From the IMG/VR virus record IMGVR_UViG_3300009174_000002, positions 51,517-115,516 of that record: DNA of 64,000 nt; one strand, given 5' to 3'. Positions 4,146 to 61,538 of this stretch are shown here, one piece after another. Made by a program: the position numbers and the translations under genes. The notes below the pieces were generated by a model. It was not told the origin of the DNA. It ran no database searches and saw only the letters and a list, made by a program, of their open reading frames with translations. This stretch comes from a virus. The stretch's first letter is position 1. Each line of letters opens with the position of its first letter.

Positions 4146-4664
4146 TTATTTTAATTCCAAATATTGTATAAGGTTTGATTCAGGATCTTGTACCCATTCG
4201 GCAATTCCTTCAATTATTTCTTCTATGGTCCCCCACTCTTCCATATCAACATATGGAGTATAATTAATGAAAGATTCAGGATCATCTTCTCTATCAGCTC
4301 TATCATCTTCAGTTATAGGAGTTTCCCAAAAATAATTGCCCTTTATTGTAAATGAACATACAAATGCACTATTTCCATTATTTGGTTTTTTACCTAATAA
4401 ATCTCTATTTCCAAATTCAAAAGTAGCTTTTAAATCATGTTTTAGAGGAATTATTATTTTTTTTATCATATATGGTTTATCCCCCATTTCGATATCAGTA
4501 TCAATCATAAACTTATATATTTTTTGTAATACAGGATTTTGTAAAATCTTTTTAAGTTGAATATTTTTATCCTCAATCCTTTTTTTTATTTTTCGAGGTT
4601 TGAACAAATTTTCATCTTTGTTAGATTTTTTTAACATAAATAATATTTTTTTACTTAAATTCAT
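4146..4664 (-). CDS. LFKPRR-tagged putative internal head protein
   Basis: Begins MNLSKKILFMLKKSNKDENLFKPRK. Confidence 0.55.
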   Translation of the reverse strand: MNLSKKILFMLKKSNKDENLFKPRKIKKRIEDKNIQLKKILQNPVLQKIYKFMIDTDIEMGDKPYMIKKIIIPLKHDLKATFEFGNRDLLGKKPNNGNSAFVCSFTIKGNYFWETPITEDDRADREDDPESFINYTPYVDMEEWGTIEEIIEGIAEWVQDPESNLIQYLELK

Positions 4665-4769
4665 CTATTTGTTTTTATCTTATTACCTAATTTAAATATT
4701 ATTTTTTATTTGAAAAAGAAATATTATTTTTATAATATATAAACGAAATCTAAGAATAAATCAATTTAC

Positions 4770-4795
4770 AAAAGGAATGTTTCTACATTCCTTTT
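4770..4795. terminator. Perfect hairpin between divergent genes (terminator-like)
   Basis: aaaaggaatgt-ttct-acattcctttt. Confidence 0.55.
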
Positions 4796-4813
4796 TTTAT
4801 CTTTGTACTTAAA

Positions 4814-4839
4814 GTTTACTTAAGGATAATTAATTTCAT
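4814..4839 (+). promoter_or_regulatory. Early-type promoter motif GTTTACT-N10-TAWYTTYAT
   Basis: gtttact taaggataat taatttcat, 16 nt before the ATG at 4856. Confidence 0.55.
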
Positions 4840-4855
4840 TCATAAATTAAAATTT

Positions 4856-5209
4856 ATGAAATATAAGTCTTTTGATTGCCATTTTGCTGCTTTTTCCACT
4901 GAAGAAAATACTCCAATACATAAAATTTCAGTTCCAGAAAATAAATTAACAGGCGAAATAGATAAGGATTTAGAGGTAATTTTTACCTATGGGCAAAATG
5001 ATTTTAAACCCATTTCGGAAAGAAAAAAGGTGAGAAGTTTATCTAGTGGAGATATAATTGATTATCAAGGAGTTCTATACTTTATAGATGATTTTGGCTT
5101 TGTAAAAGAAGGCGAACAAGTGGAAAAAGGAATGTCTGTTTTATTCCTAAAGGACTCAAAATCAAAGGTTTTACATGAAAAATTTCCATCTATTTTTAAT
5201 ACAAAATAG
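4856..5209 (+). CDS. Hypothetical protein (possible YodL-like domain)
   Basis: RSLSSGDII and YFIDDFGF resemble YodL-like motifs. Confidence 0.5.
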   Translation: MKYKSFDCHFAAFSTEENTPIHKISVPENKLTGEIDKDLEVIFTYGQNDFKPISERKKVRSLSSGDIIDYQGVLYFIDDFGFVKEGEQVEKGMSVLFLKDSKSKVLHEKFPSIFNTK

Positions 5210-5225
5210 CCTTAAAAGTAAATAA

Positions 5226-5251: not shown

Positions 5252-5270
5252 GGTATAAAAATAAACAAAA

Positions 5271-5522: not shown

Positions 5523-5527
5523 AAAAT

Positions 5528-7592: not shown

Positions 7593-7610
7593 TCCTTAAA
7601 ATAAAAAAAC

Positions 7611-8719: not shown

Positions 8720-10453
8720 TTATGAGTTATTTACAAGAGCGGGTTGGTAAACTTGGAAAGTTTCAATTCCCTTCATAATAACTAGGCAATAGAACCTGTT
8801 ATTCAACATCTTAGTTCCAAAACGGCTAGAAATCATCTTTCTAGGATTGAAGTCTTGGTCTTCAATAACTGTTGGTGATAAGATATATTCAATGTAAGGA
8901 CAATAAACATATCCAGTATCAAAGAAAGAACTTCCCTTTCTACCTACAAGGCAAATTTCAGAAGGGATAAAAGGATCCACATAAACCTGATACTTACTTT
9001 GAAGTGTACCAATTTTTTCAACACCTAAAGTAAACTTGGTTCCCATTTCGTCACCATCATAAGCCTTAAATGTATCAAGGTTAACTAACTTAGCTGCACC
9101 TTCTGCAGAAATCAATACCCAGTTAGCACCACCTTGACGTGTTGATTTTTGAATTTTAGCATTAGCTCTATTGATAGCCAAAACTAAACCTTGGTTATAG
9201 TCGGCTTCAATACCTCTAAATACTGTGTTTGCTGGATTAGGATCTACTGAATTATAAAAATCAGCGTTCCAAAGTTCAATATGACCAGCGAAAGTGATTA
9301 ACTCTCTAATGATCAATCTATCTTTTTCACCAGCTATTTGTTCAGCTAACAACTGTGATAATTCAGCTTCAGCATCAATAGCATAATATGCCATCAAGTC
9401 CTGAGCTAATTCAACAGTCCAAGCTGTTTTCATTTTGTGAATCTGAGTTGTAATAGGAATTGATTTAACTTCCATTTTCAATTCAGAACTAAATGCGGGA
9501 TTCAACTCTAGGTTTAAATATTGACGGAAACCTAAACGTAAGCTAATAGTTGCGATACCAGATTTCAAAGGAGAAATTCTGAATCTCAATTTGTTATTAA
9601 CTGCTCCAGGACCACCTGCACGACCAACAGTTGAAGTTGTATTGTTAGGGGCTAAAGCGTTAGCATTTCTATCAGATGACATAACATCATCACCATAGTT
9701 CATTTGTACTCTTTGGAAGAAGAAATCTACTCCATATACTTTAGCACCAGTAGATTCATAAAGCATAACCGAAGCTGCTTCATCCATTGTAATTCCACCA
9801 ATTGAAGAAAGGTCAAATTCAACTACTGCAAATTGAGGATTACCACTACCATCAGTTAATGTAGCTGTTGCTGTTAAAGCTGCTGCATTGGCTGTATCGT
9901 TTTGTCCACCAATTGAAGTATTGTTAAAAGAACCTGCGGTAGCATTCCAACCTCTGGCAATAACCTTACCCTTTGAAATGTCATAATTGGCATTATCATA
10001 GAATTGGTCATAACCTGTTAAACTTTGGAAAGTATTTCCTGACATATCATCAGCCTGACCACCTGAAAGGTTGTTGGCTAAATAATCACTACCAATAGGT
10101 TTCTTAGTAGTTGAGACATGGTAATCAAGATAGAAAGCTAAACCGAAAGGATATGACAAAGGTTGTACTGATACTAAATTAGGAGTAACCATCATCGCAT
10201 TTTGTCTACGAATCATAGGTATCGCAATTGTATCAAATACTGCCATATCAGCTGTAGAGTTATTTTCTTTCAAAATTTGTCTTTTTTGATTCTCCATCAA
10301 AACAGCCATATTTGCCATATCTCTACCTTTCAATTTATATAGATAGCCAGTGCCTTTCCATGCTTCTACAAGCACCTGGCGCTTCGCTCTCTCATCATGT
10401 TCCATCAATCTTCCTAGATTTTTTTCTTCTAGGTTTTCCTTAATGAATTTCAT
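8720..10453 (-). CDS. Major capsid protein, T4 gp23-like
   Basis: AVLMENQ, IPMIRR, LVSVQPLSYPFGLAFYL, WTVELAQDL.AYYAIDAEAELSQLL..QI..E.DR, and GYVYCPYI...FNPRK...SRFG. Confidence 0.95.
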   Translation of the reverse strand: MKFIKENLEEKNLGRLMEHDERAKRQVLVEAWKGTGYLYKLKGRDMANMAVLMENQKRQILKENNSTADMAVFDTIAIPMIRRQNAMMVTPNLVSVQPLSYPFGLAFYLDYHVSTTKKPIGSDYLANNLSGGQADDMSGNTFQSLTGYDQFYDNANYDISKGKVIARGWNATAGSFNNTSIGGQNDTANAAALTATATLTDGSGNPQFAVVEFDLSSIGGITMDEAASVMLYESTGAKVYGVDFFFQRVQMNYGDDVMSSDRNANALAPNNTTSTVGRAGGPGAVNNKLRFRISPLKSGIATISLRLGFRQYLNLELNPAFSSELKMEVKSIPITTQIHKMKTAWTVELAQDLMAYYAIDAEAELSQLLAEQIAGEKDRLIIRELITFAGHIELWNADFYNSVDPNPANTVFRGIEADYNQGLVLAINRANAKIQKSTRQGGANWVLISAEGAAKLVNLDTFKAYDGDEMGTKFTLGVEKIGTLQSKYQVYVDPFIPSEICLVGRKGSSFFDTGYVYCPYIEYILSPTVIEDQDFNPRKMISSRFGTKMLNNRFYCLVIMKGIETFQVYQPALVNNS

Positions 10454-10641: not shown

Positions 10642-12117
10642 TTATTGGAAATAACTATCGTTATATCCCTCAAGACCCATCAAGAAACGAATTCTAGAAT
10701 CTTTTTCATTTATTTGTTCTGGTTTATTCGTTTCAAAATTTTCAGATTCTTTCAAACTATTAATAGTTTTTACAGAACTCTTAGTTCTTTGAACAGTTTC
10801 ATTTAAAGATTCATGTGCCTGTTCTCTTATAACTTTAACTAATTTCTTATACAAATTATCAATTTTTTGAGGATTTGAACATTTGTCAAATGATTCAGAA
10901 ATTTTAAGTCTAGTTTCTTTATCTAATTTATCACCAACGGCAGTTAAAATACCATTAGCTTTGGTAATTTTATAAGCCTCTAATTTAAATTTATTCACTT
11001 GTTTTTGTAAAAGTGCAATTTGTTTGGAAGCTTCAACCAACATTTTTGATTTTTTAACTTCTTCAGAGATAGCAACTTTTTTCCCATCACCAGCTCCACC
11101 ACCAGAAGTAGATGTAACCTTTTTAAATGTAGGTTTAGTTTCAACTTTTTTAGCAGTTTTATTATCGGTTACTCCAGCAAATTTTGGTTTTGTTTCAATT
11201 TTTCTAGATTTATTTTCACCAGAAACTTTTCCAAAACTTTTTTGTAAATCGCTATCTGTTTTCTTAAATTCATCAGGAACGTCTACTCCATCATAAGGAT
11301 CTTCTGTTTCTTTAAGTTTTTTCTTAGTAACAACTTTTTCTGGTTGTTTCTTAACTACTTTTTTAGTTTTAGATTGTTTATTTAAAGCTTCGTTAATTTC
11401 TTGTTCAACTTCAGCTTCTAACATTACTGATTCTTCAATATCATCAAACTCATCATCGCCTTCATCATCAAATTCTAAACCAGCTTCGTCTTCGCCAAAA
11501 TCTTCTCCATCTTCAAAACCTTCTTCATACTCTTCTTCGTCACCAAAACTAAAATCTTCATCTCCACCTTCTTCGCCAGCGAGATCCCCATCTTCTTCCT
11601 GGGCTACCGATGCTAGAGTAGATCCTAATTCATGGTAGGTATCAGGACTATCAATTATATCTTCTAATTCGCCAGCGGTAACTGGACCATCAAGAGCTTC
11701 TTCGCCTTCTTCTTCTTCATGTTGCAAAAGATCAAGTTCAGGCTCTAATAATTCGTCGGTATATTCTTCAAAGGTTTCATCCTCTGTAGGAGTTAAATCA
11801 GCTGTAGGATCCACATATTCATCTTCCCCCTCTAAACCTTCTTCACCTTCAAAATCTCCTTCTCCGCCTAGTTCTTCGCCACCACCACCACCAAAATCTT
11901 CACCACCTTCGCCTCCGAAATCTTCTCCTCCACCCATTTCTCCACCTTCATCTTCGCCTCCTGCATCTAGGCCTAGATCATCATCAAGTGGTTCATCATC
12001 AGCTTCGTTCATAAAATGTTCGTAATCTTCTTTCAACCTAGCACGAAGTTTTTTTGTTATTTCACTTTCTTCTTTTTTAGGTTTTAAAGTAGATCTTTTA
12101 TTTTTTTCTGTAGCCAT
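10642..12117 (-). CDS. Prohead core/scaffold protein
   Basis: Extremely acidic; immediately upstream of the capsid gene; many LxE/IxE sites; C-terminal KLKISESFDK and RIRFLMGL. Confidence 0.75.
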   Translation of the reverse strand: MATEKNKRSTLKPKKEESEITKKLRARLKEDYEHFMNEADDEPLDDDLGLDAGGEDEGGEMGGGEDFGGEGGEDFGGGGGEELGGEGDFEGEEGLEGEDEYVDPTADLTPTEDETFEEYTDELLEPELDLLQHEEEEGEEALDGPVTAGELEDIIDSPDTYHELGSTLASVAQEEDGDLAGEEGGDEDFSFGDEEEYEEGFEDGEDFGEDEAGLEFDDEGDDEFDDIEESVMLEAEVEQEINEALNKQSKTKKVVKKQPEKVVTKKKLKETEDPYDGVDVPDEFKKTDSDLQKSFGKVSGENKSRKIETKPKFAGVTDNKTAKKVETKPTFKKVTSTSGGGAGDGKKVAISEEVKKSKMLVEASKQIALLQKQVNKFKLEAYKITKANGILTAVGDKLDKETRLKISESFDKCSNPQKIDNLYKKLVKVIREQAHESLNETVQRTKSSVKTINSLKESENFETNKPEQINEKDSRIRFLMGLEGYNDSYFQ

Positions 12118-14274: not shown

Positions 14275-14592
14275 TTAGTATAATTCATCAGTAACACTTG
14301 TGACATTTAATAAACTATCCTTTAAATCCAATTCTCCGTTTTTTTCGGCAAAATCAACAACAATGTTTTCTATTTCATTATCAGTTTTATCTTTTACTAA
14401 ATTATAAGGTATTTCTATATCTACAGTTCCTACAGGATTGCCATACATATTTTCTAATCCTATATAATACTTAACATACTTAGGCACTGGTCTATTTAAT
14501 CTTCTAGGTTTAAAAAGATTTTTTTCTTCTGAATCCTTCGGATTAAATAGATTTTCTTCAGATTCTTTAAGTATTTTATTTACTAAATTCAT
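14275..14592 (-). CDS. LFKPRR-tagged putative internal head protein
   Basis: MNLVNKILKESEENLFNPKDSEEKNLFKPRR (tag partly duplicated). Confidence 0.6.
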   Translation of the reverse strand: MNLVNKILKESEENLFNPKDSEEKNLFKPRRLNRPVPKYVKYYIGLENMYGNPVGTVDIEIPYNLVKDKTDNEIENIVVDFAEKNGELDLKDSLLNVTSVTDELY

Positions 14593-14610: not shown

Positions 14611-15156
14611 TTATTCTGTTTGTCCTGAATTATCTTTATTCTTCAAATACTCTTCCTCAGAAATTTCTTCCATGTATGGGTTACCTAGAGCTATTTGTCT
14701 TCTGGTAACTAGACCTGAGCTTGACATATATTTTAAAACACTTTCAAATTCTTCTCCTCCATCCTCATCCTCATCTTCAAAATCTATTAATTTAAATGGG
14801 ATTTTTAAATAAAAAATCTTTGTAGTTTTTAAATGTAATTTAACAAAATAATAAACAAATTCTGGTTGTTCTCTATTTAATCTTCTAGGTTTAAAAATAT
14901 CATCAGATTCCATTAAAAAAGTTTCCTTTCTAACATAATCAGTTAATATTTTCTCAACAAGATTACTACTATTTTTTGGTTTTATTTGCCCAACATCTAA
15001 TAAACGATTTAAAATATTCAAGCTATAAATTACTTTTCTATTACTAGTCAAATTTATCGCATGAACTTTATCTCCTAAAATAGCATAAACTTTAAAATAA
15101 TATCCATTGCCAATATTAACCCCTGGCAAATATGTTTTTCCTACTTCTATTGACAT
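14611..15156 (-). CDS. Two-module protein with an internal tag
   Basis: Internal NLVEKIL...FLMESDDIFKPRR. Confidence 0.6.
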   Translation of the reverse strand: MSIEVGKTYLPGVNIGNGYYFKVYAILGDKVHAINLTSNRKVIYSLNILNRLLDVGQIKPKNSSNLVEKILTDYVRKETFLMESDDIFKPRRLNREQPEFVYYFVKLHLKTTKIFYLKIPFKLIDFEDEDEDGGEEFESVLKYMSSSGLVTRRQIALGNPYMEEISEEEYLKNKDNSGQTE

Positions 15157-15160: not shown

Positions 15161-17047
15161 TTAAAGAGTTTGTTTCTTTATTTTTAAGAATTTCTCTACT
15201 CCTAAAATATTCAAATAAATTTTTTCAGCTTCAGTTAATCCTTGTAATTTTTTTTCTTTAATAATTTCTTTAGAAGTTTTGAGATTACAATTACCACCAA
15301 GGCACTGTCTTTCTGTAAGAACTAAATTTTTATTGTTTTTACTTTTGGATTCAATTAATTTTAAATTAGCTTCATAGGTAGATGGCCTACTTACTAAATC
15401 CCAACAAATCACTTCTAAATCATCTTCTACTACATCATATCCACTTCCATCTTGATAAACTGATCCTAGTGCTCTAGAGCTAATGCCTAAGGTCTTTTCA
15501 TTTAAAATTATATTTCTTGCCTTTAAAGCAGGATCGCCAGGACTGGCAAAAGCATTTAATAGTTTAATTTTACCCCATACTTCTACTCCTTTAAACCAAA
15601 TATCTTCAATTGTCATAGCTGCATTCTTTAATTCAGGCACTGTAGATTCAGAGTTTCCGGTCCAAGTAACCTTACCATCTCTCATAGTTAAAAAAGTATG
15701 ATTTTCTACCTCTATACAATAAATTCTGTCATCAAATAAAAATTCTTCTTTTTTAATTGCTCTTGCATTACAATACTTAGAAATTTTCTTTCTTATCGTA
15801 TAAGATTTATTTTCTTTTAATATTTTTTGTTTTTCAAGAACTTCATAATTTTCTTTATTGCTTCTATAAGGTTCTTTTGAATAGTAAGTGATATTATTTA
15901 CTAATTCTATTTCTTCAGTTTTTTTATTTTTTAATAAATAATCTTTTTTATAAACTTTCTTTTCTTTAATAGAAAAAGAATATCCAGTTTTTAATAATAA
16001 TTCTCCAACATCATCTATTAATTGTTTTGATACAGAATAATAATCATTTTTATGACCATCACCTTTATATAAGTATTCAATTAAAATTTCTAGATATTTT
16101 TTATCTAAATCCTTTATAAATTGAGGAATACATTTATTAAAAGCTCCTTTACCAAATTGTTCACAAAATAACCCTAATGCAGTACTATTAATAGTAAAAG
16201 TAGATTCTTTATTATCTTTTTGTATTTTTTCTCTCCAATTAAATGGCATTTGATTTAAAATATTAACTATATCATCTTTACCATTTTGCTTAGTTTGTGA
16301 AATTTGAACAAATTTAAATCCATTACTATCAGTTCTTACCCAACCTTCTGAAATAAACCATCCTAAAAATTTCATTAATACTTCAGTAGATATTTCTACT
16401 TCAGGTAATAGTTTAGTACCTTTAACAGTAATAGTTTTTAAATCCTCACCCTTCCAATTACAAAATTGAGGAATTTGAGTATTAGAATTAAATTGATCAA
16501 AAACTAAAAATTTACCTTTTTTAAAACCTTTACCTTGTTGTGTAAAAAATTTATGATTAGGCGTAACTACAGAGGAAAAATGCTCATTATATAACTTATA
16601 CATTTTACCATAGTATGGTTCATCAATTTTCTTTAATACTGGTTTGTATTCTAAATCGCCAGTATCTGGATTACGAGTAGCTACAATATCGCCTACTTTT
16701 ACATCTACAATTGATATCCAACCATTTTTAGTAAGAATAGAATGTTGATTATCTAGGCAGGGATGATCTAATTCGCCAAAGGATTGTCCGTCCCTAATTT
16801 CCTCTTTTGTATATCTTTCACATTCTTTCTTTAAAATTGAAAAAGGATATATTCTACCATTTCTATTAGGCGTATCACCTTTTTGAATTACACCCACAAG
16901 AAAAATAGGTTGGTCTGGATCTCGTTTAGCTTTTTCTAAAGCCATATTTCCACCTTCAATTTCTAATAATAAATTTTTAGATCCTTTTATGGGAGTTTCA
17001 ATTAATACTCTTCTTTCTTTTAGAACACCTTTTTTATTTACTAACAT
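15161..17047 (-). CDS. Prohead core protein protease (T4 gp21-like) containing an intein
   Basis: NRNGRIYP, GELDHP, LGISSRALGS and WDLVSRPST motifs. Confidence 0.92.
   Translation of the reverse strand: MLVNKKGVLKERRVLIETPIKGSKNLLLEIEGGNMALEKAKRDPDQPIFLVGVIQKGDTPNRNGRIYPFSILKKECERYTKEEIRDGQSFGELDHPCLDNQHSILTKNGWISIVDVKVGDIVATRNPDTGDLEYKPVLKKIDEPYYGKMYKLYNEHFSSVVTPNHKFFTQQGKGFKKGKFLVFDQFNSNTQIPQFCNWKGEDLKTITVKGTKLLPEVEISTEVLMKFLGWFISEGWVRTDSNGFKFVQISQTKQNGKDDIVNILNQMPFNWREKIQKDNKESTFTINSTALGLFCEQFGKGAFNKCIPQFIKDLDKKYLEILIEYLYKGDGHKNDYYSVSKQLIDDVGELLLKTGYSFSIKEKKVYKKDYLLKNKKTEEIELVNNITYYSKEPYRSNKENYEVLEKQKILKENKSYTIRKKISKYCNARAIKKEEFLFDDRIYCIEVENHTFLTMRDGKVTWTGNSESTVPELKNAAMTIEDIWFKGVEVWGKIKLLNAFASPGDPALKARNIILNEKTLGISSRALGSVYQDGSGYDVVEDDLEVICWDLVSRPSTYEANLKLIESKSKNNKNLVLTERQCLGGNCNLKTSKEIIKEKKLQGLTEAEKIYLNILGVEKFLKIKKQTL
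15653..16759 (-). mobile_element. Intein (369 aa) with LAGLIDADG-type endonuclease
   Basis: Starts CLDNQHSILTKNGW directly after ELDHP; block B VTPNHKF; FLGWFISEG and YLYKGDG endonuclease motifs; ends IYCIEVENH...WTGN followed by Ser. Confidence 0.92.
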
Positions 17048-17149: not shown

Positions 17150-17787
17150 TTAAATTTTTTGTTCCATTAAAATAAGAAATCCTTCATTTATTAATGTATC
17201 TCTAAGAGTTGTTGAATTTAATCTAGATTTTAAAATATTTGTAAATCTTTTACTTTCTAAAATAGGTTTTTTTGAAATTATTTTAAAATCTTTTTCATCT
17301 TGAAATATTTCCGTCGAAAATACTGCATAAAATACTCTAAATCTTTCTCTTTTTTTATTAATAGTAATTCCATATTTTACTTCTACTAGTAGAAGTTTTT
17401 TTAATAATTTTTCAATATCAAACAATTCAAGAAATTCTTTTTCTCTTTCTTTTATTCTTCTGGGTTTAAATAAATCTTTAGAATTTGGCGTTAAATTATC
17501 TTCTTGTTCTAAATTTTCCTTAATCTTTTTTTTATTACTTTCTTAGCTTCAAAATAGCCTGTTTTATTAGGATCTTTTACTTTAACATCTATATTTTTAT
17601 CACCTAATTTTTTTACATCTGTGGGATCGCTAATAATTTCATCCGCAGTCATAGTTACATCTTCTTTTATTTCTGTAGTAGGCATAGTAGGATCTTCAAA
17701 TTCTTTAAAAATTACTTTTTTACCAGAATATTTTTCTAGAAGATTTTTAATAATAAATATTTTTCTTTTGTCAATTTTATTTTTCAT
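17150..17787 (-). CDS. Putative head protein; ORFs 17509..17787 and 17150..17425 joined by a -1 frame break
   Basis: A8 run at 17526-17533. The -1 frame reads KKIKENLEQEDNLTPNSKDLFKPRRIKERE into the 17150 ORF. The N-terminus has LLEKYSGKKVIFKE. Confidence 0.6.
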
Positions 17788-18090
17788 TTATTTAGCATTT
17801 GAATACATTACAATATCATCATCTTGTTTACTTCCTACTTTACTTCGTAATAACTGAGCTAGTTTTTGTAAACTATACATAATTCTAGTGGCTTCCTGAA
17901 AGCTACCATTTTTGTATTTGTTATAAGATTCGTCAGTCATATTTTTTAATGATTGAAACAACTTATCTACTTCCGGATCATCAGTAGAAGCTCCAACTTC
18001 TTTTAAAATTACTTTTTTACCAATTTGTTTTTCAAGTAATTTTGTTAAAATAATTATTTTCTTATCTACTATAGATTTATCTTGTTTCAT
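17788..18090 (-). CDS. GKKV-leader putative head protein
   Basis: KIIILTKLLEKQIGKKVILKE. Confidence 0.6.
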   Translation of the reverse strand: MKQDKSIVDKKIIILTKLLEKQIGKKVILKEVGASTDDPEVDKLFQSLKNMTDESYNKYKNGSFQEATRIMYSLQKLAQLLRSKVGSKQDDDIVMYSNAK

Positions 18091-18373
18091 TTAACATAGT
18101 AGTTTGTTTAATTTTATTGTTAATTCTATCTTTTAATTGTTCAATAACTTGTAAATCTTTATTTAAACTATTTTCTAATTCTTCAAATTGTGGATAATTT
18201 CCAGTATATTCTAAAATTTGTGAATAATTATAAATTAAATCTTCAATATTGTTAGTAGCATTTTGTAAATATTCAACAATTTGATTCTTTTCAGATTCAA
18301 TATCTTCAAATATTACTTTTTTATTAGAATATTTTTCTAGAAGTTTGATATATTGTTTTACTTTAGAATACAT
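18077..18373 (-). CDS. GKKV-leader putative head protein
   Basis: KQYIKLLEKYSNKKVIFE. Confidence 0.6.
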   Translation of the reverse strand: MYSKVKQYIKLLEKYSNKKVIFEDIESEKNQIVEYLQNATNNIEDLIYNYSQILEYTGNYPQFEELENSLNKDLQVIEQLKDRINNKIKQTTMLNETR

Positions 18374-25190: not shown

Positions 25191-25812
25191 TTTTTTGTTT
25201 AAATTCATAAGAATATTCTAAATACTCTTTTATTGCTAATGTAAATTGTTGCAATAAATTATATAAATCATCTAATGTAAATTCCTTATTATAAAATTTA
25301 AATTTTTCTTGTAAATTTTTTAAAATTAATTCTGCTGTTTCGCTAAAATAAGCATTTATATCTAGTTCTGTTAGAATTTCTTGAAATATTAATTCTTTAG
25401 TAATTGGTCTACCTTCTACTCTTCGAGGTTTAAACAAATTTTCTTCTTCTAATATATTACTTTTTTTGCCTGTGGGATATTGTGATAATGCCAAACCCAT
25501 TAAAGTTTTTAAACTTTCAACATATATTTTAGCTTTTCTTTGATTATTTAAACCTTCTACTGCTAATCCATATTTATAATTTTTCTTTACATTTTTATCT
25601 CTACTTAAAAACCCTAAATATAAATTAGAAAATTCTTGAGTTAATATTATTGATTCTAACCCTGCTATTCCTTGATATTTATCATACAATTGTCTAAAAA
25701 GAAGTAAAGGTTCTTCTACATCTTTATTTTCAATAATTATAACTTTTTTACCTGTAGCTTCTTCTAATTTCTCAATCAAAATCTTCTCTCGGTTGGACAT
25801 TGAATTTTTCAT
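25174..25812 (-). CDS. Protein carrying both a GKKV leader and an internal LFKPRR tag
   Basis: KLEEATGKKVIIIE ... ILEEENLFKPRRVEGRPITK. Confidence 0.65.
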   Translation of the reverse strand: MKNSMSNREKILIEKLEEATGKKVIIIENKDVEEPLLLFRQLYDKYQGIAGLESIILTQEFSNLYLGFLSRDKNVKKNYKYGLAVEGLNNQRKAKIYVESLKTLMGLALSQYPTGKKSNILEEENLFKPRRVEGRPITKELIFQEILTELDINAYFSETAELILKNLQEKFKFYNKEFTLDDLYNLLQQFTLAIKEYLEYSYEFKQKINKDK

Positions 25813-26452
25813 TAGTAGGTAATTCTAATTCATTGCTAGCACCTGCCAAATACAGCAATAATATATCTTCTTTTTTAGGGTTATTAAAAAAGTTTTGTAA
25901 ATTTTTTCTTAACTTTTTAACTGTATTAGAATATATATTTTTTTCATTATCCCTAAGTTTTTCTAACATTCCAGCAATTACTCCTTTATGTCTTAATTCT
26001 TCTTCACTATCTGCTAATTTTATTATTCTTACTTTTTCAAATTGTAAACTAGGATATTTATTATCTAAAATTTTGTTAACTAAACTTTCAATATTTTTAT
26101 ATTGTCTAGTTTTTACTAAAAAAACATATTCTGTAGAAGAGGACCAATTTTCCTTTTTAATGGTATTTGCTATAGCTATATAAAAATGTTCTGGAGTTTT
26201 TAAATTGAGAGTTTCATACTCAGTTTTAAATTTATTTTTTAATTCTTCTCTCCTTTTTTTAATATTATTTATTCTCTCATCTCTTAATACTTGTTCTCTA
26301 TCCTCTACTCTTCTAGGCTTAAAAAGATTATCTTCTAAAACTTCATCTTCATCAAGAAGCCCATAATTATCATAACTAGGAGATTCTAAAATTAATCTTT
26401 CTTTAGAGTATTTTTTTAATAATTTTATTATATTTTGTTTTTTTGTAACCAT
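25772..26452 (-). CDS. LFKPRR-tagged putative head protein
   Basis: RLILES...VLEDNLFKPRRVEDRE. Confidence 0.65.
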   Translation of the reverse strand: MVTKKQNIIKLLKKYSKERLILESPSYDNYGLLDEDEVLEDNLFKPRRVEDREQVLRDERINNIKKRREELKNKFKTEYETLNLKTPEHFYIAIANTIKKENWSSSTEYVFLVKTRQYKNIESLVNKILDNKYPSLQFEKVRIIKLADSEEELRHKGVIAGMLEKLRDNEKNIYSNTVKKLRKNLQNFFNNPKKEDILLLYLAGASNELELPTNEKFNVQPREDFD

Positions 26453-26454: not shown

Positions 26455-26769
26455 TTACATTGTATCAGAATGAAAATAAGTAAGAATATTAAATTCTAAA
26501 TCTTCAGTAAGTTGTTCTACTAATAATTTCATAACTTTTCTTAAATCTTCTTCTTGCAATTCTAATTTATGGTTTTGGAATTGTTTTTCTAATTTATCAA
26601 ATAATTTATCTATAGTTATTTGATAAAAATTTTCTTTATCTAATTCCTCTAAAATATTTTCATATAAATCGGTTTTAGTAATTGGTCTACCTTCTAACCT
26701 ACGAGGTTTGAAAAGATTTTCTTCTTCTGATTCTAACAATATTTTACTTACTAATTTTATCTTTTCCAT
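26455..26769 (-). CDS. LFKPRR-tagged putative head protein
   Basis: KILLESEEENLFKPRRLEGRPITK; paralog of the C-terminus of 25174..25812. Confidence 0.65.
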   Translation of the reverse strand: MEKIKLVSKILLESEEENLFKPRRLEGRPITKTDLYENILEELDKENFYQITIDKLFDKLEKQFQNHKLELQEEDLRKVMKLLVEQLTEDLEFNILTYFHSDTM

Positions 26770-28941: not shown

Positions 28942-29361
28942 TTAATCACTACTACTATATAAATAAACTTTATCACCATTTTCATCAGTTAAAAAATCTA
29001 ACATATTATCTTCTTCTAGAACTTTAAATGTCCATTTTATAAGCTCCATATTTGGTATTACTTTTTCTATAGATGAGCCACTAATTTTAGAATCGTATCC
29101 GGCTTCAATTGCTTCATTTCTTACAACTGGTTTTGCCAATTCTAAGGCTTCTTTTCCATCCTTAGCTAAAACAAAACAAAATGCATCAAAAATATAATCA
29201 CCTAATATAATATTAACCTGATATAAATTTTTAAGATTTGGATACTTTTCTATTAGTTTTAATATTTTTTCTTTTTCTTCATCTTTTCTTCCTTCTATTC
29301 TTCTAGGTTTGAAAAGTTCATTTTCCTCAGATTCAAATAATATCTTATTTATTAAGTTCAT
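28942..29361 (-). CDS. LFKPRR-tagged protein (KYP...VLAK family)
   Basis: MNLINKILFESEENELFKPRR. Confidence 0.65.
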   Translation of the reverse strand: MNLINKILFESEENELFKPRRIEGRKDEEKEKILKLIEKYPNLKNLYQVNIILGDYIFDAFCFVLAKDGKEALELAKPVVRNEAIEAGYDSKISGSSIEKVIPNMELIKWTFKVLEEDNMLDFLTDENGDKVYLYSSSD

Positions 29362-29374: not shown

Positions 29375-29821
29375 TTAAGTACCTGATACATATATATAAA
29401 CTTTTTTCTTTCCTTTTAAAACCTTTAAAATTTCAGGATCATCTTCAACTTCATCTAACAAAAAGTTTAAAACATCTAGATCATCTATAACTTTTTGTAT
29501 ATTTTTATCAGTTATTTCAATTTCATTAATAGGAATTCTATAAAAAGATTTAGGAAAATAACTTTTTGCTTCTTTTGATGCGGATGGTAAAGCCAATTTA
29601 AAAGCTTCTTCTTCGTTTTTTGCTAATACATATGAACTTGTGTCATATATTTCATTAAAAGAAATATAAACGTCATATATATTTTCAATATAAGGATATT
29701 TTAACTTAAGTTGTTTTATTTCTTTTTTTAATTTATCCTCTCTATCCTTTACTCTTCTAGGCTTAAATAAACCATCCTCAGATTCTTTTAAAATAGTTAA
29801 TATTTTGGAATTAAGATTCAT
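29375..29821 (-). CDS. LFKPRR-tagged protein (KYP...VLAK family)
   Basis: MNLNSKILTILKESEDGLFKPRR. Confidence 0.65.
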   Translation of the reverse strand: MNLNSKILTILKESEDGLFKPRRVKDREDKLKKEIKQLKLKYPYIENIYDVYISFNEIYDTSSYVLAKNEEEAFKLALPSASKEAKSYFPKSFYRIPINEIEITDKNIQKVIDDLDVLNFLLDEVEDDPEILKVLKGKKKVYIYVSGT

Positions 29822-31242
29822 TAAACTCTTTCAATATTATAAATTATCCCTAAAATTTTTCCGTCTAACATATTTATAAATTCTTTATCCATTAAATCTT
29901 CTTCTAATCTATCTTCATCTTCCCCATTTACCTCAATATATGTTTCAATTGATTCACATTCGCTATATGAACTAAAATTTACTAATTTTTTACTTTTGCT
30001 CATAAGTTTTCTACCATTTTCTACTGCTTCATTTTCAGAATTACCTCTACAATACATATATACATCATATTTTTCTTCATCAGTAAACCATAAAACCCAA
30101 ATAGATTTTAATTTTTCAAATAATTTTTCTTTTTCTTCAATTCTTGGTTGTAATCTTCTAGCCTTAAAAATATTCTCAGGTTTATTTACTTTTTTTTTAG
30201 TCTCCATAATATATTCTTTTACTAAATTAGAAATATACCCATAAGTTCTATTTTCTACTAGAGTCTTTAGTTTAAATTCTTTTCCTTTGAATAAAGATTC
30301 ATTTAAGGTAGTTTTACTATCTATAAATTTTGTAAATTCGCTTTCCTTAAATTTATAGATTTTTTTCTTTCCTCCTTCCTTTACAATAACTTGTAATTTA
30401 CCTTTTTCTTCACATTCTTTAAAGGTATTAGGCATTACTTCAAAATTTTGATCTATATCTTCATTTATTCTAGTTTTACTACCATCTACTACATTTTGCA
30501 TTCCTTTATAAGGGTCAAAAGTTTCCATTCTTTTTTTATTAAATCCTACTGGAGTATCAAAAGAAGCCATATCTGCTGTTGTCATATCTTCTTTCAATTT
30601 TTGTTTAGGCGCTTCCTCCTTTTTTTCAAAATCTACTTTCTCATATCCATCTTCTTCCCCAGGATAATATTCATCGGCTACTTCTACTTCTGTTACACCA
30701 GGTACTTTTAAAAGATTTTTAATTTCTTCTTCGCTAGTATATTCATCGCCACAATCTGCATCTCCAGATGTCCAACATACTTTTCCATTTTCATGATTTA
30801 CATGTAATACTCCATAATCTCCGCAATGTTTTATTTGTCTGGCATTAGATTTTAATTGTTCCATATCTATTTCATCTTCTTGTAAAGGTTTTTCATCCTT
30901 TTCCTCATTTTCTTCATCTTCTCCTTCATCATCTGAATTATCATTATAGGATTGTTTTTGCCAAGAATCAGGATCTTTATCTTCGTTTTCTTTAATAAAT
31001 TTCTTAGTAGAACTACTAGATTTCCATAAAGGAGAATTATTAATCATTTCAATATATCCTTCATTAATATCTTCTTGAGTAAATTCACAAAAATCTTTAT
31101 TATACTTACTTTCAAATAAATATTTATCATCTTCAATAGAAGATAAATACATATCTGCTAAAGTTTCTTCAACTTCTTTTAAAATCAAAGTATAAGGTTC
31201 GCCCATTCTAACTTCTTTCAAAAGTTTTACTTGTTTTTTCAT
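29821..31242 (-). CDS. Multi-module putative head protein containing a capsid-like peptide and an IFKARR tag
   Basis: LKEDMTTADMASFDT, ENIFKARR, many LxE sites. Confidence 0.65.
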   Translation of the reverse strand: MKKQVKLLKEVRMGEPYTLILKEVEETLADMYLSSIEDDKYLFESKYNKDFCEFTQEDINEGYIEMINNSPLWKSSSSTKKFIKENEDKDPDSWQKQSYNDNSDDEGEDEENEEKDEKPLQEDEIDMEQLKSNARQIKHCGDYGVLHVNHENGKVCWTSGDADCGDEYTSEEEIKNLLKVPGVTEVEVADEYYPGEEDGYEKVDFEKKEEAPKQKLKEDMTTADMASFDTPVGFNKKRMETFDPYKGMQNVVDGSKTRINEDIDQNFEVMPNTFKECEEKGKLQVIVKEGGKKKIYKFKESEFTKFIDSKTTLNESLFKGKEFKLKTLVENRTYGYISNLVKEYIMETKKKVNKPENIFKARRLQPRIEEKEKLFEKLKSIWVLWFTDEEKYDVYMYCRGNSENEAVENGRKLMSKSKKLVNFSSYSECESIETYIEVNGEDEDRLEEDLMDKEFINMLDGKILGIIYNIERV

Positions 31243-35379: not shown

Positions 35380-35760
35380 TTAATCTTCTTCAGTTAAATT
35401 TAAATCCCATTCTTCTAATATATTTTGTATCATACTTTTAAACTCATTCAATGCGCCTTCTTTTAAATTAGAATATTTATTTGGAATATATTTATGTATT
35501 TCTCTATTTATACTAGTTATTAATCTAATAAAGGCAAAATGAACACCCATTCCATTTAAATAATCAACTGGTAAATTTTGATAATATTCTGAGCTAAATT
35601 CTCCCCCCACATTTTGTTTTTCTGCTACTCTAACAAAAGCTTTTGGTATTTTTTTATCTCGATCATCTAATCTTTTATTTACCCTTCTGGGTTTAAATAA
35701 ATTATTTTCATCTTCTTCAGATTCTTTTAAAGTGGTTAATATTTTAGAATTTATATTCAT
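35380..35760 (-). CDS. LFKPRR-tagged putative head protein
   Basis: MNINSKILTTLKESEEDENNLFKPRR. Confidence 0.65.
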   Translation of the reverse strand: MNINSKILTTLKESEEDENNLFKPRRVNKRLDDRDKKIPKAFVRVAEKQNVGGEFSSEYYQNLPVDYLNGMGVHFAFIRLITSINREIHKYIPNKYSNLKEGALNEFKSMIQNILEEWDLNLTEED

Positions 35761-58681: not shown

Positions 58682-58710
58682 GGATTGTTTCGTTTACATG
58701 GTTTTTTAAG

Positions 58711-58747
58711 AAAAGTAGGGTAGGATTAATCTCCTCCCTATTTTTTA
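58711..58747. terminator. Terminator between convergent genes
   Basis: Imperfect stem taggg(t)agga / tcct-cccta with T-tract. Confidence 0.6.
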
Positions 58748-60130
58748 TCTATATTCTAATTTTTGTTCTATTTCTTTTTTAAGAGAATTTAAAGCCTCAG
58801 TTACCTTCATAGTTTTAAATTTGCTTTTTAAATATGTTTGTCCCGCTGCTGGACTAGCGGTAGTATGTCTATCATACATATATTCGTTTCCTTTATTATC
58901 AATTCCTTTTAATACAAACCCACTACCAATTTTTATTTTATTATGTTTTTTATCCCAATTGGTAGTTTGATCAACATAATATATAAATCCATCTATCCAT
59001 TTTAATTCTAATATTTTTTGTATTTGTTCAACATTCCACCAGGAGGTTGAAGATATTCTATCTTCAACAGCTTGCACGCCTTTAATAGTATATGGACGAG
59101 AAATTTTATATTTTCCAATAGTAATTTCACTAGGAACTAGATTTTTATTTCCTTTTAATTTAGTAATCTTTTCTTTTTTAGGTTGAGTAGGTTTATTATT
59201 TTTAATATATCCTTTTTTAGTTAGTTCGTAAATTTTACGAATACTATAAATATCTTCATTAGTAAATATATTTTCATTTAAAATTTTTAAAACATTTTCC
59301 CAATTGGATTTAGATATTTCTTTGATATAAAATAATTGATTAAGAAACTCTTTAAGATTATAAGTAAACCAATCTGCATTCTCACTACGACTCATTACTT
59401 TTGCAATAATTTCTTTTTCTTCCTCGGTAAGAAATGTTGAATCTCCTATTGCTTGTTTGTTATGTGCCAAACGAGTTTCTATTTCCTTTTGTCTTAATAA
59501 GATTTCCTTTTCAATTCTAGCTTTTTCTGCTGCTATTCTAGTTTCTATTCTTCTAGGTTTAAAAAGATTATTAGAATCTTCCTCTTCTTTTAATATTTGT
59601 AGTATTTTATTAGATAGTTTCATTTCCGATAAAAGTTTTTTATAAGTAGCCAATAAAACAGTATTACTATTTTGTTTATATACATTTTCAAAATCTTTTT
59701 TATTTTTTATTTTTTTAGCTTTATCATTTTCCATATTATAAGAATATAATGGAAAAAACTTCATTAATTTCTCCCACATATGTTTAGAATATTGATTTTG
59801 TGTACCATCACTGAGTAAATATTTATATTTCTTAATTAGAAAAGTATATATTTGAAATCCTAATCCTTTATTTCTAAATTCTGGTTTGATAAAAATAGTA
59901 TTTAATTGTGGATATTTATAATATTCAGAAAGTTCATAAAAAGCTAACATTTTTTTACCTTTCATAATATAATAAACACCAGCATAATTACTAAAATATA
60001 TTTTAAAACTTCCTAAGTTTCCAAAGTATTTTAATTCTAATTCGTTAAAATCTTGTTCGAAAAATATCAAACCTTCAGACTCTAGATTATTGTTTCCTTC
60101 ACTATATAATATCTCATTTAATCTTTTCAT
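58745..60130 (-). CDS. GNAT-like acetyltransferase domain fused to an LFKPRR-tagged module
   Basis: IFIKPEFRNKGLG...LLSDGTQ...MWEKL, then an internal MKLSNKILQILKEEEDSNNLFKPRR. Confidence 0.65.
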   Translation of the reverse strand: MKRLNEILYSEGNNNLESEGLIFFEQDFNELELKYFGNLGSFKIYFSNYAGVYYIMKGKKMLAFYELSEYYKYPQLNTIFIKPEFRNKGLGFQIYTFLIKKYKYLLSDGTQNQYSKHMWEKLMKFFPLYSYNMENDKAKKIKNKKDFENVYKQNSNTVLLATYKKLLSEMKLSNKILQILKEEEDSNNLFKPRRIETRIAAEKARIEKEILLRQKEIETRLAHNKQAIGDSTFLTEEEKEIIAKVMSRSENADWFTYNLKEFLNQLFYIKEISKSNWENVLKILNENIFTNEDIYSIRKIYELTKKGYIKNNKPTQPKKEKITKLKGNKNLVPSEITIGKYKISRPYTIKGVQAVEDRISSTSWWNVEQIQKILELKWIDGFIYYVDQTTNWDKKHNKIKIGSGFVLKGIDNKGNEYMYDRHTTASPAAGQTYLKSKFKTMKVTEALNSLKKEIEQKLEYR

Positions 60131-60673
60131 TTAAGGTCTAATTTGTTCTTCAAGCCCAAGATTATCACCCCATACATCTTTTTGAATCACTTCATCATCA
60201 TCCATGATTGCAAAATAATCTACCCTTAAATTTTCTCTTTTTAATAATACATTTCCAGGACCTACATCTTCAATAGTATAATCATATATTTGATATAGTC
60301 TTTTTCCTATTCCAAAATAATCTCCTCTTTGTGGATCTATATTTAATTCATGTAAATGTTCTCTATAAACTGAAACAACCATTTTCATGATTTTATTGGG
60401 TACTCCACTTTGTAATTGTTCACCACCTTGGGTAATTTTAAACTTACCTCTAACTTCTATACCTCTTGGCTGTTTGAATTTTTTCATTGTCAATTCACCA
60501 TAGAAATTCTTTTTACTTTGTTCCCAATCCAAAGCAAAATATAATACAGACATATTATGTATCTCTTCAACAACTTCTCTACTTTGTTTTTTGAGATACT
60601 GTATATCCTTATCATTGAAGTAAAGATTTCCATTTTCTGATCTTTTATCAGTTGTTTTCAAAGGTTCGGACAT
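60131..60673 (-). CDS. Putative head-closure/neck protein (gp14-like)
   Basis: YGE and HL.ELNI.P..GDYF pattern; near the other neck-like gene. Confidence 0.45.
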   Translation of the reverse strand: MSEPLKTTDKRSENGNLYFNDKDIQYLKKQSREVVEEIHNMSVLYFALDWEQSKKNFYGELTMKKFKQPRGIEVRGKFKITQGGEQLQSGVPNKIMKMVVSVYREHLHELNIDPQRGDYFGIGKRLYQIYDYTIEDVGPGNVLLKRENLRVDYFAIMDDDEVIQKDVWGDNLGLEEQIRP

Positions 60674-61090
60674 TTAAATATTTTTTGCTTTATGTTTAAG
60701 TATATCTGATAAAATCAAATTAAAAAAATCTTCTTTGTTAGATATAGAAATAGCATCAGTAGTGTATTCAGTATAACCAATAGTTGCTTTATTAGCATTT
60801 TGATACCAAAAATATTTTACATATCTTTGATTAGATCTATTGATAGGGAAAGTAAGACCAATTTGTAATTCTATATTCAAATCATTTCTTCCAAATAAAT
60901 CACACTGTATATATCTAGTTTCAATATTATTTATCTCTAAAAATTGTTTTAAACTTTCTTCTATTTCATCTTGCTTTTTTTCTTTTTCAGTCCTTATATC
61001 CGGCCTGTTCATTCTTCTAGGTTTAAACAAATTTTCTTCTTCTTCAGATTCTAATAATATTTTAGTTATTAAATTCATTATTTTAAACAT
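60674..61090 (-). CDS. LFKPRR-tagged putative head protein
   Basis: MNLITKILLESEEEENLFKPRR. Confidence 0.65.
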   Translation of the reverse strand: MFKIMNLITKILLESEEEENLFKPRRMNRPDIRTEKEKKQDEIEESLKQFLEINNIETRYIQCDLFGRNDLNIELQIGLTFPINRSNQRYVKYFWYQNANKATIGYTEYTTDAISISNKEDFFNLILSDILKHKAKNI

Positions 61091-61538
61091 CGAATTTTAT
61101 ATAAGGTAAATTATGACTAAATAATTTTAATAAATCCGGTTCTTGAAGAAATACTTCTCTTCTATATCCTCCTGCTATAGGTTGGTAAATATTAACTACC
61201 GATCTTCCAGACATCCAGATTTTATTCAACTCCGAATCACTTAGGGAATTAAATTTTTTTATAAAATAAGTTCTTGCATTATTAAGTGCCATAGGTTTTA
61301 TTTTGTCTAAAGCATCTTGATAATCTTTTGCTCTTACAAAATGATCAATATAATATTCGAAACTAAATAATTTAAAAGTTAAATGAACAAGATAAACATC
61401 TTTAATTCCAGGATATTTTTTTAAAATTTCTTCTTCCTCTTTTTTTAAAATCTCTTCTCTTTCAGACACTTTTCGAGGTTTGAAGAGATTATTCTTATCT
61501 TCTTTAAGAATAGATAGTATTTTAGAATTTAAATTCAT
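61083..61538 (-). CDS. LFKPRR-tagged protein (KYP...VRAK family)
   Basis: MNLNSKILSILKEDKNNLFKPRK. Confidence 0.65.
   Translation of the reverse strand: MNLNSKILSILKEDKNNLFKPRKVSEREEILKKEEEEILKKYPGIKDVYLVHLTFKLFSFEYYIDHFVRAKDYQDALDKIKPMALNNARTYFIKKFNSLSDSELNKIWMSGRSVVNIYQPIAGGYRREVFLQEPDLLKLFSHNLPYIKFDV

What the first reader, a model, noticed from the sequence alone, without database searches (positions are those of the whole stretch)
4146..61538. Shared LFKPRR peptide tag on about 15 otherwise diverse proteins: candidate capsid-cargo addressing system
Seen: the motif (L/I/F)F(K/R)(P/A)R(R/K), usually preceded by [ILM]xE and a short acidic spacer, occurs about 19 times. Approximate positions are 4600, 14510, 14890, 17465, 25430, 26320, 26705, 29305, 29760, 30160, 31575, 32000, 33175, 33735, 34495, 35690, 59555, 61020 and 61480. 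All copies are in minus-strand late-module genes flanking the sheath, protease, terminase and neck genes; none is in a plus-strand early gene. Many ORFs begin MNL(N/I)xKILxxLKE-SEEENLFKPRR. Codons vary (cct/ccc/cca; aga/cga/cgt/agg/cgc), so conservation is at the protein level. Established: the T4 gp21 protease cleaves after (I/L)-X-E, and T4 internal proteins use a short N-terminal capsid-targeting sequence removed at such a site. Inference: the MNL..KIL..LKE part targets cargo to the prohead and is clipped off. LFKPRR would remain at the new N-terminus as a second signal (DNA tethering or ejection), so the phage could load a variable library of effectors into its head. I know of no described system with such a retained post-cleavage tag.
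Basis: partly seen in the sequence, partly recalled or inferred. Interest (0 to 1): 0.9.

Follow-up and report, generated by a model that had tools for sequence, protein, structure and literature searches.

The report
Shared FKPRR tag on phage proteins
An uncultured T4-like phage puts the same short peptide, always just after a head-protease cutting motif, on about 36 otherwise dissimilar protein units, which most likely marks proteins that are loaded into the capsid and trimmed there, as T4 does with three proteins, but with an extra conserved piece of unknown role.

Summary
All 19 copies sit at the stated coordinates, all on the minus strand. The whole 115.5-kb record holds 34 strict copies plus 2 degenerate ones, against 0.1 expected by chance.

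The element is composite: [LIV]-x-E, then 1-6 polar or acidic residues, then (L/I/F)-F-K-P-R-(R/K)-(I/L/V)-x-x-R. Synonymous codons vary, and payloads have diverged to 26-37% identity or beyond detection, so selection acts on the peptide.

- 18 copies follow a 10- or 13-residue leader (MNLxxKILxE) that has the length and I/L-x-E register of the T4 capsid targeting sequence.
- The rest lie inside larger ORFs. Across this genome and database relatives, 23 of 24 internal copies follow [LIV]xE, against a 22% background.
- The phage encodes a gp21-family (Peptidase_S77) protease, a gp23-like capsid protein and a gp20-like portal.
- One AlphaFold model puts the tag in a flexible stretch ahead of the folded payload.
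- The tag is confined to a small clade: 52 clusters among 1.84 billion representative proteins. Sister phages at 62-77% capsid identity lack it.

Best reading: a T4-style cargo and processing system, scaled up, carrying an undescribed second motif. Whether that motif is kept after cleavage, and what it binds, is untested. Its near-zero net charge argues against simple DNA tethering. This scan has noted comparable shared leaders in other phages.

The parts
4590..4607 (-). Tag copy LFKPRK in ORF 4146-4664 (172 aa), after leader MNLSKKILFMLKK and a spacer
14500..14517 (-). Tag copy LFKPRR in ORF 14275-14592 (105 aa). It is preceded by a decayed duplicate of spacer plus tag (SEENLFNPKD)
14881..14898 (-). 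Internal tag IFKPRR in ORF 14611-15156 (181 aa), after FLME-SDD
17456..17473 (-). Tag LFKPRR in a frame with no ATG. An A8 run at about 17527-17534 separates this frame from ORF 17509-17787
25420..25437 (-). Internal tag in ORF 25174-25812 (212 aa), after NILE-EEN. The ORF starts with the second leader type
26309..26326 (-). Tag in ORF 25772-26452 (226 aa), after EVLE-DN
26698..26715 (-). Tag in ORF 26455-26769 (104 aa), after leader KLVSKILLE-SEEEN
29299..29316 (-). Tag in ORF 28942-29361 (139 aa), the protein modelled. The tag lies in the low-confidence stretch, residues 11-21
29753..29770 (-). Tag in ORF 29375-29821 (148 aa), after the 13-residue leader MNLNSKILTILKE
30154..30171 (-). Weakest copy, IFKARR, internal in ORF 29821-31242 (473 aa). 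The payload after it belongs to family A
31570..31587 (-). Fifth tag of the 1174-aa ORF 31246-34770, after ELGE-SEGDD
31993..32010 (-). Fourth tag (FFKPRK) of the 1174-aa ORF, after GLGE-SKNDD
33166..33183 (-). Third tag of the 1174-aa ORF, after GLKE-NKN
33727..33744 (-). Second tag (IFKPRK) of the 1174-aa ORF, after KINE-SDD
34486..34503 (-). First tag (LFRPRK) of the 1174-aa ORF, after QLKE-EDEN
35683..35700 (-). Tag in ORF 35380-35760 (126 aa), after leader MNINSKILTTLKE
59549..59566 (-). Internal tag in ORF 58745-60130 (461 aa). It follows a GNAT-like domain and an internal leader copy, MKLSNKILQILKE
61013..61030 (-). Tag in ORF 60674-61090 (138 aa), after leader MNLITKILLE
61470..61487 (-). 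Tag (LFKPRK) in ORF 61083-61538 (151 aa), after leader MNLNSKILSILKE
15161..17047 (-). Prohead protease of the T4 gp21 family (Peptidase_S77, 70.5 bits), interrupted by a LAGLIDADG intein. It is the presumed enzyme for the [LIV]xE sites
8720..10453 (-). gp23-like major capsid protein. It has no tag. Its N-terminus has GRL-x-E, conserved in relatives
10642..12117 (-). Very acidic 491-aa protein at the position of the T4 gp22 scaffold (assigned by position only; no family match). No tag
17509..18373 (-). Three small ORFs with the second leader type (LLEK-x-S/G-G-KKV-x-L/F-x-E), just upstream of the protease. By my recollection of the T4 gene order (20, 67, 68, 21, 22, 23), this is the gp67/gp68 position

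Best explanation
The tagged ORFs most likely encode head-internal (prohead core or cargo) proteins handled by a T4-type system.

Proposed steps:
1. A short N-terminal leader (MNLxxKILxE or MNLxxKILxxLKE) plays the part of the T4 capsid targeting sequence.
2. The gp21-family protease cuts after the Glu of [LIV]-x-E. This happens at N-termini and at junctions inside multi-unit ORFs, so the 1174-aa ORF yields several units.
3. Each released unit then begins with a short acidic spacer followed by the invariant F-K-P-R-(R/K)-hydrophobic-x-x-R peptide.

That peptide is a flexible linear motif in front of the folded payload. It most likely docks every unit to one common partner in the prohead: scaffold, inner capsid surface, portal or the protease itself.

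Shown here: the motif, its statistics, protein-level selection, the coupling to [LIV]xE, the protease gene, restriction to one lineage, and the predicted flexibility.

Inferred: virion location, cleavage, retention of the tag, and the partner.
For: - Copy number: 34 strict copies against 0.1 expected; 36 by HMM with a clean score gap.
- Selection on the peptide: F, K, P, R and R(+9) are invariant or nearly so, while synonymous codons vary. Payloads share 26-37% identity or nothing detectable.
- Leader: 10 residues with I7, L8 and E10. The T4 CTS is 10 residues with processing determinants at positions 8 and 10, and gp21 cuts after L/I-x-E (PMC9026906).
- Coupling to the cleavage motif: 23 of 24 internal tags and 51 of 56 N-terminal tags have [LIV]xE within 14 residues upstream, mostly 1-6, against a 21.6% background. 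This holds in distant YwqK/MORN-like relatives P0048, P0051 and P0053.
- Head module: Peptidase_S77 protease at 70.5 bits, T4-type portal and gp23-like capsid protein.
- Position: tagged genes lie among the head genes and all but one degenerate copy are on the structural-gene strand.
- Structure: AlphaFold model with mean pLDDT 87. Residues 1-20 (leader, spacer, tag) score 54-56, and a helix starts at residue 22 and continues into the confident payload. The tag is therefore exposed and directly abuts the fold.
- Precedent: T-even internal proteins are diverse and share only a CTS (PMC3012670).
Against: - There are no virion proteomics, no cultured phage or host, and no cleavage data.
- The capsid protein, presumably also cut at an L-x-E site, has no tag. 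The tag is therefore not a general requirement of the protease.
- Three leader-bearing proteins in the same genome have no tag. Sister phage G002 has the leader without the tag. A related contig has ORFs that start directly with MNLFKPRR and have no leader. Leader and tag are thus separable, and the tag could act outside the capsid.
- The stretch expected to be retained is about neutral in charge. This weakens DNA binding as the role.
- The leader shows no sequence similarity to the T4 CTS beyond length and register.
Confidence: 0.5

Rival explanations
1. The FKPRR peptide is only the prime-side part of an extended protease recognition site, an exosite contact that makes these linker sites preferred substrates. 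It has no role once the cut is made.
For: The tag is almost never found without an upstream [LIV]xE. It sits in a flexible stretch. It marks unit boundaries in multi-unit ORFs. In this Lys/Glu/Ile/Leu-rich proteome the bare [LIV]xE triplet is very common (22% of 14-residue windows), so extra specificity would be useful.
Against: Published gp21-family sites show no determinants beyond the three-residue motif (PMC9026906). The capsid protein and scaffold lack the tag. The spacer between Glu and the tag varies from 1 to 10 residues, which fits a fixed subsite contact poorly. Leaderless ORFs that start with MNLFKPRR have no site to cut.
Confidence: 0.2
2. The tag is a docking or modification site for a common partner unrelated to capsid loading. 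Candidates are a phage enzyme that modifies the Arg/Lys residues (a RiPP-like 'one enzyme, many substrates' arrangement) or a host factor that all these proteins must bind in the infected cell.
For: Leader and tag are separable. One degenerate copy sits in a plus-strand, probably non-structural gene block. An earlier finding of this scan (e1-127136) showed that a shared phage tag tracked a radical-SAM enzyme rather than the capsid.
Against: No candidate enzyme was found. The only radical-SAM-like hit (18.6 bits, below the cut-off) carries a TIQGEG motif that, from my own knowledge, is typical of QueE. The ART-like match is marginal (E 0.0098). The tight coupling to the head-protease motif and the position among head genes are left unexplained.
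Confidence: 0.15
3. The tag has no function of its own. It is the conserved N-terminus of one expanded paralogue family, spread by duplication and kept uniform by recombination between copies.
For: About a third of payloads (27 of 80) join one divergent superfamily on iterative search. Tandem pairs are common. Tag codons are skewed from genome usage (Leu CTT 46% against 13%), as expected from shared descent.
Against: The other payloads form more than 35 groups with no detectable similarity, among them YwqK/MORN-like repeats. A GNAT-like domain lies next to one tag. Synonymous sites differ among copies, so the copies are not recent conversions. Invariance of five residues while payloads fall to 26-37% identity requires selection. 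Orthologues at 53-69% identity keep the tag.
Confidence: 0.1

Closest known systems
Capsid targeting sequence (CTS) of phage T4 internal proteins IPI, IPII, IPIII and Alt, removed by the gp21 prohead protease
   Same: Both have a short N-terminal propeptide of 10-20 residues ending in I/L-x-E. Both put the same leader on otherwise diverse proteins. Both phages encode a gp21-family (S77) protease and a gp20/gp23-type head (PMC9026906, PMC3012670).
   Different: The leader has no sequence similarity to MKTYQEFIAE (T4 sequence from my own knowledge). The scale is about 36 units against a handful in T4. Copies also lie inside multi-unit ORFs. A second, invariant 10-residue motif lies on the C-terminal side of the putative cut; I found no T4 counterpart in the papers read. 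Nothing here has been tested experimentally.
Processed head and ejection protein paralogue families of giant phages (phiKZ, 201phi2-1, SPN3US)
   Same: Many head proteins are cut after Glu at a three-residue motif by a gp21 homologue. Paralogue families vary in number between phages, and some paralogues have identical N-terminal propeptide starts (PMC5694885, PMC9026906).
   Different: The giant-phage motif is S/A/G-x-E and the propeptides are often longer than 100 residues. No conserved motif after the cut is described. The present phage is a 115-kb or larger T4-like phage, not a phiKZ-like one.
Cargo-loading peptides of encapsulins (from my own knowledge)
   Same: A short flexible peptide on diverse cargo proteins docks them to the inside of an HK97-fold shell. 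This is a possible analogue for the retained tag.
   Different: Encapsulin peptides are usually C-terminal and have other consensus sequences. No protease step is involved. No binding to the capsid protein has been tested here.

Membership tests
T4-type CTS / gp21-processed internal head proteins | The phage encodes a gp21-family (Peptidase_S77) prohead protease | tested here: met
   PF03420 at 70.5 bits (cut-off 27) on ORF 15161-17047; PHROG head maturation protease, E 3e-35
T4-type CTS / gp21-processed internal head proteins | T4-type head module (gp23-like capsid protein, gp20-like portal) | tested here: met
   The capsid protein matches gp23-type proteins of T4-like phages. Portal_T4 PF07230 scores 158.6 bits at genome 33445-36111
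T4-type CTS / gp21-processed internal head proteins | Short N-terminal propeptide ending in L/I-x-E, shared by otherwise diverse proteins | tested here: met
   About 21 ORFs start with a 10- or 13-residue MNLxxKILxE-type leader. I7 and L8 are invariant and E10 is nearly so
T4-type CTS / gp21-processed internal head proteins | Sequence homology of the leader to the T4 CTS | tested here: not met
   By inspection of alignment A1 against the T4 CTS (MKTYQEFIAE, from my own knowledge), only Met1, a hydrophobic residue at position 8 and Glu10 correspond. This is an analogy of length and register, not homology
T4-type CTS / gp21-processed internal head proteins | Proteins are present in the virion and cut at the motif | not testable with these tools
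   The phage is uncultured and no proteomic data exist
Encapsulin-type cargo-loading peptide | The peptide binds the inner face of the HK97-fold shell protein | not testable with these tools
   No complex prediction was available. Only monomer models could be made
RiPP-like recognition sequence served by one modifying enzyme | A modifying enzyme is co-encoded and co-distributed with the tag | tested here: inconclusive
   The only radical-SAM-like hit is below the cut-off (18.6 bits) and carries a TIQGEG motif that, from my own knowledge, is typical of QueE. The ART-like match is marginal. Most ORFs have no family match
Twin-arginine (Tat) signal peptide | S/T-R-R-x-F-L-K followed by a hydrophobic stretch and a signal peptidase site | tested here: not met
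   The order of residues differs (L-F-K-P-R-R). The tag is followed by a charged helix, not a hydrophobic stretch

The most novel reading that the evidence does not exclude
The FKPRR peptide is a retained neo-N-terminal address. After the head protease removes the leader, the peptide holds each cargo unit on a defined prohead or portal site, or orders its exit through the tail. That would make it a phage counterpart of encapsulin cargo-loading peptides. Injected proteins of this clade could then be predicted from sequence, and foreign proteins could be loaded by design.
Probability: 0.2. Interest if true: 0.8.

Novelty: new variant of a known kind. Interest (0 to 1): 0.6.

Why it matters
How tailed phages choose which proteins travel in the capsid is known in detail only for T4's 10-residue CTS. 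This phage appears to use the same logic on about 36 units. These include multi-unit ORFs that would be cut into pieces.

It adds a second, much more strongly conserved motif on the mature side of the cut. If that motif is a docking or ejection signal, it would be a new element of head assembly. It would also give a sequence rule for finding injected proteins, which are likely anti-defence or host-takeover factors, in uncultured phages.

Because sister phages keep the leader but lack the tag, the pair offers a natural comparison for finding the tag's partner.

Tried and rejected
- Chance occurrence: rejected.
- DNA-level signal: unlikely. Synonymous codons vary, and internal copies keep the reading frame.
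- Wider distribution:
  - A degenerate DNA pattern in IMG/VR gave one chance hit.
  - Five related viral records with 62-77% capsid identity have no FKPRR.
  - 185,579 prokaryote genomes gave nine chance hits.
  - JGI and ENA metagenome contigs gave true relatives only at low G+C, related to this phage.
  - The literature search for LFKPRR found nothing.
- Phage GenBank records: tblastn of a tagged protein found no match.
- The word-indexed protein search returned only the query itself.
- Pfam and PHROGs on 20 tagged or leader proteins gave no family above threshold, apart from a GNAT domain.
- Fold of the modelled payload: no convincing match. The Foldseek best E-value was 0.058 and the VIA-align best Z was 5.3.
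- The second model, from a single sequence, had pLDDT 48 and was not used.
- Payload charge: no bias against the rest of the proteome.
- Promoter analysis was given up. Genes are tightly packed, often TAAATG, with no Shine-Dalgarno sequence.
- Considered from the sequence and set aside: Tat signal, 2A-like skipping, clamp-binding or PIP-like motif, and N-degron. For the N-degron, the residue before Leu is Asn or Asp, not the Glu that gp21-type proteases need.
The 112-kb contig carrying P0053 could therefore not be read, and searches of IMG/VR for P0051 and P0053 found nothing.


Full report
**Observation.** A six-frame scan for [LIFMV]F[KR][PA]R[RK] finds 19 copies in the window.

The window is bases 51517-115516 of a single 115,516-bp viral record, rated linear and about 51% complete by CheckV. 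The whole record has 34 strict copies, whereas 100 shuffles gave a mean of 0.1 and at most 1. An HMM of the copies recovers 36 at 12.4 bits or more, and the next score is 4.7 bits. The two extra copies are degenerate:
- LFRPRN on the minus strand.
- LFKPRN in a plus-strand gene at genome 2265-2675. This gene has no leader and lies beside a tRNA nucleotidyltransferase-like gene and a sigma-factor-like gene (identified by eye from the translations).

Twenty-eight ATG ORFs carry the tag, 15 of them in the window. The sixteenth window copy, at 17456, is in a frame with no ATG. An A8 run separates it from ORF 17509-17787, so this is either a frameshift or a sequencing error.

**Anatomy.** The conserved element is longer than the hexapeptide: [ED][ED][EDN][ND]-(L/I/F)-F-K-P-R-(R/K)-(I/L/V/M)-(E/N)-x-R.
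- F and the first R are invariant. K and P are found in 33 of 34 copies, and R at +9 in 30 of 34.
- Synonymous codons differ among copies, so the constraint is on the peptide.
- Codon choice is nevertheless skewed from the genome average (Leu CTT 46% against 13%). This fits shared descent of the copies.

Eighteen copies follow an N-terminal leader, either MNLxxKILxE (10 residues) or MNLxxKILxxLKE (13 residues), plus an acidic spacer. The others are internal. Counting this genome and the database relatives, 23 of 24 internal copies have [LIV]-x-E ending 1-10 residues upstream, against 21.6% at random positions in the same proteins.

The 1174-aa ORF 31246-34770 has five such junctions. ORF 58745-60130 has a GNAT-like domain, then an internal leader copy, then the tag.

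**Payloads.** Pairwise BLAST links only tandem pairs or triples, at 26-37% identity. Iterative profile searches join 27 of 80 payloads (this genome plus relatives) into one divergent superfamily. The remainder form more than 35 small groups or singletons.

Pfam and PHROGs give nothing above threshold, apart from the GNAT domain. Payload charge does not differ from the rest of the proteome.

An AlphaFold model of ORF 28942-29361, built with an 18-sequence alignment, has mean pLDDT 87. The leader forms a short low-confidence helix. The spacer and tag (residues 11-21) are irregular, with pLDDT about 54. A helix begins at residue 22, directly after P-R-R, and runs into a confident alpha/beta domain. 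That domain has no convincing match in the PDB. The tag therefore behaves as an exposed linear motif next to the fold. A single-sequence model of a second payload type was too poor to use.

**Genomic setting.**
- The phage has a gp23-like capsid protein, at best about 35% identical to Flavobacterium phage and huge-phage records.
- It has a T4-type portal with an intein, a large terminase and a sheath.
- Its Peptidase_S77 (gp21-family) protease is interrupted by a LAGLIDADG intein.
- Small ORFs with a second leader, LLEK-x-(S/G)-G-KKV-x-(L/F)-x-E, also ending in a hydrophobic-x-E triplet, sit just upstream of the protease. From my own knowledge of the T4 gene order (20, 67, 68, 21, 22, 23), this is where gp67 and gp68 lie.
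- Genes lack Shine-Dalgarno sequences. Together with the capsid relatives, this suggests a Bacteroidota host, though that is an inference.

**Distribution.** Nine viral contigs have capsid proteins 62-77% identical to this one. The five whole records searched have no FKPRR, and three of them read in full show no comparably over-represented peptide. They do share the second leader. The closest, G002, has MNLINKILLES directly followed by payload.

G002 also has a 712-aa protein homologous to parts of the 1174-aa and 473-aa ORFs, without tagged units. The tagged units therefore look like additions in this lineage.

A degenerate DNA pattern found true relatives only in low-G+C metagenome contigs at 70-96% nucleotide identity, plus two more divergent contigs. 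One of these (L049) has intact ORFs that start directly with MNLFKPRR or MNNLFKPRR, with no leader.

An exhaustive profile search of 1.84 billion representative proteins found 52 clusters, roughly a third to two-fifths of them from this genome. Variants include NLFSPRR, DLFNPRR and MFKPRN. In the YwqK/MORN-like proteins P0048, P0051 and P0053, the tag again follows L-x-E by one to three residues. Prokaryote genomes and IMG/VR gave only chance matches.

**Interpretation.** In T4, the first 10 residues of the internal proteins are a capsid targeting sequence. Positions 8 and 10 govern processing, and gp21 cuts after L/I-x-E (PMC9026906). The T-even internal proteins are diverse and share only the CTS (PMC3012670). 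Giant phages use the same protease family on many head proteins (PMC5694885).

The leader here has the same length and register, and the protease family is present. The tag is also almost inseparable from the cleavage motif. The most economical reading is therefore a scaled-up T4-type cargo and processing system. In this reading each unit is released by a cut 1-10 residues before the tag.

What the tag itself does is open.
- It is not needed for cleavage in general, because the capsid protein has no tag.
- It is not needed for every leader-bearing protein, because three have none.
- It can exist without a leader.
- The stretch from the putative cut to the tag is close to neutral (mean +0.7), which argues against plain DNA binding.

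I favour a docking motif for one common head component. The rivals are a prime-side recognition element, a site for an unrelated partner or modifying enzyme, and a family relic. A radical-SAM partner, suggested by an earlier finding on other DNA, was not found. The only hit is below the cut-off and carries a TIQGEG motif that, from my own knowledge, is typical of QueE.

**Novelty.** Loading varied proteins by a shared leader is known from T4, and this scan has noted comparable shared leaders in several other phages. The conserved motif on the mature side of the cut, repeated at internal junctions, was not found in the literature searched.

**Limits.** There is no experimental data.

Noticed in passing
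window 15161-17047 (-); also genome 33445-36111 (L053:13445-16111): The prohead protease carries a LAGLIDADG-type intein inserted after the conserved GELDHP, and the T4-type portal carries an intein splicing domain. Two essential head genes are therefore intein-interrupted.
   Followed up: partly
window about 17527-17534 (-): An A8 run separates ORF 17509-17787 (second-type leader) from the downstream frame that holds the tag at 17456 and runs on to about 17150. Reading through would give one leader-payload-IKE-tag-payload protein. This is a programmed slip, a broken gene or a homopolymer sequencing error.
   Followed up: partly
window 17509-18373, 25174-25812, 25772-26452, 34771-35115, 35757-36047 (-): A second shared leader, (I/L)xxLLEK-x-(S/G)-G-KKV-x-(L/F)-x-E, is found on about nine ORFs. 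Unlike the FKPRR tag, it is shared with sister phages G002, G004 and L011. It also occurs internally, directly fused to the tag (genome 49093: KKVIFE-DEENN-LFKPRR).
   Followed up: partly
L015-L019 (IMGVR_UViG_3300037141_000236), 48-88 kb: About 19 reading frames end in the same C-terminal heptapeptide, I-(K/R)-(K/Q/R)-E-I-G-L, followed by a stop. This is an unexplained shared C-terminal motif, or a DNA signal that overlaps gene ends, in a contig retrieved through its capsid protein.
   Followed up: no
L049:162-461, 5033-5344, 7481-7759 (-): A related metagenome contig has intact ORFs that start directly with MNLFKPRR or MNNLFKPRR, or with MKKDLSNSNDFEEENLFKPRR. These are tags without the hydrophobic leader. 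The first could arise by deletion between the two AAT-CTT (Asn-Leu) repeats of leader and tag.
   Followed up: partly
window 14518-14560 (-): ORF 14275-14592 has a tandem, decayed duplicate of spacer plus tag (SEENLFNPKD) just before the intact copy (SEEKNLFKPRR). P0034 from a relative has the same arrangement.
   Followed up: no
window 45354-46115 (+): This 253-aa ORF has a sub-threshold radical-SAM match (18.6 bits). Its TIQGEG motif is typical of QueE, from my own knowledge, which hints at 7-deazaguanine DNA modification.
   Followed up: no
genome 17772-18940 (L052) and 39102-39785 (L053): Three proteins carry the MSLI(D/N)KILKE or MKLIDKILLE leader with no FKPRR tag.
   Followed up: partly
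window-wide, upstream of minus-strand starts: Genes lack Shine-Dalgarno sequences, and many are joined as TAAATG. Leader codons are almost purely A/T (ATG AAT TTA ATA AAT AAA ATA TTA). This is consistent with a Bacteroidota-type host and may also favour translation initiation.
   Followed up: no
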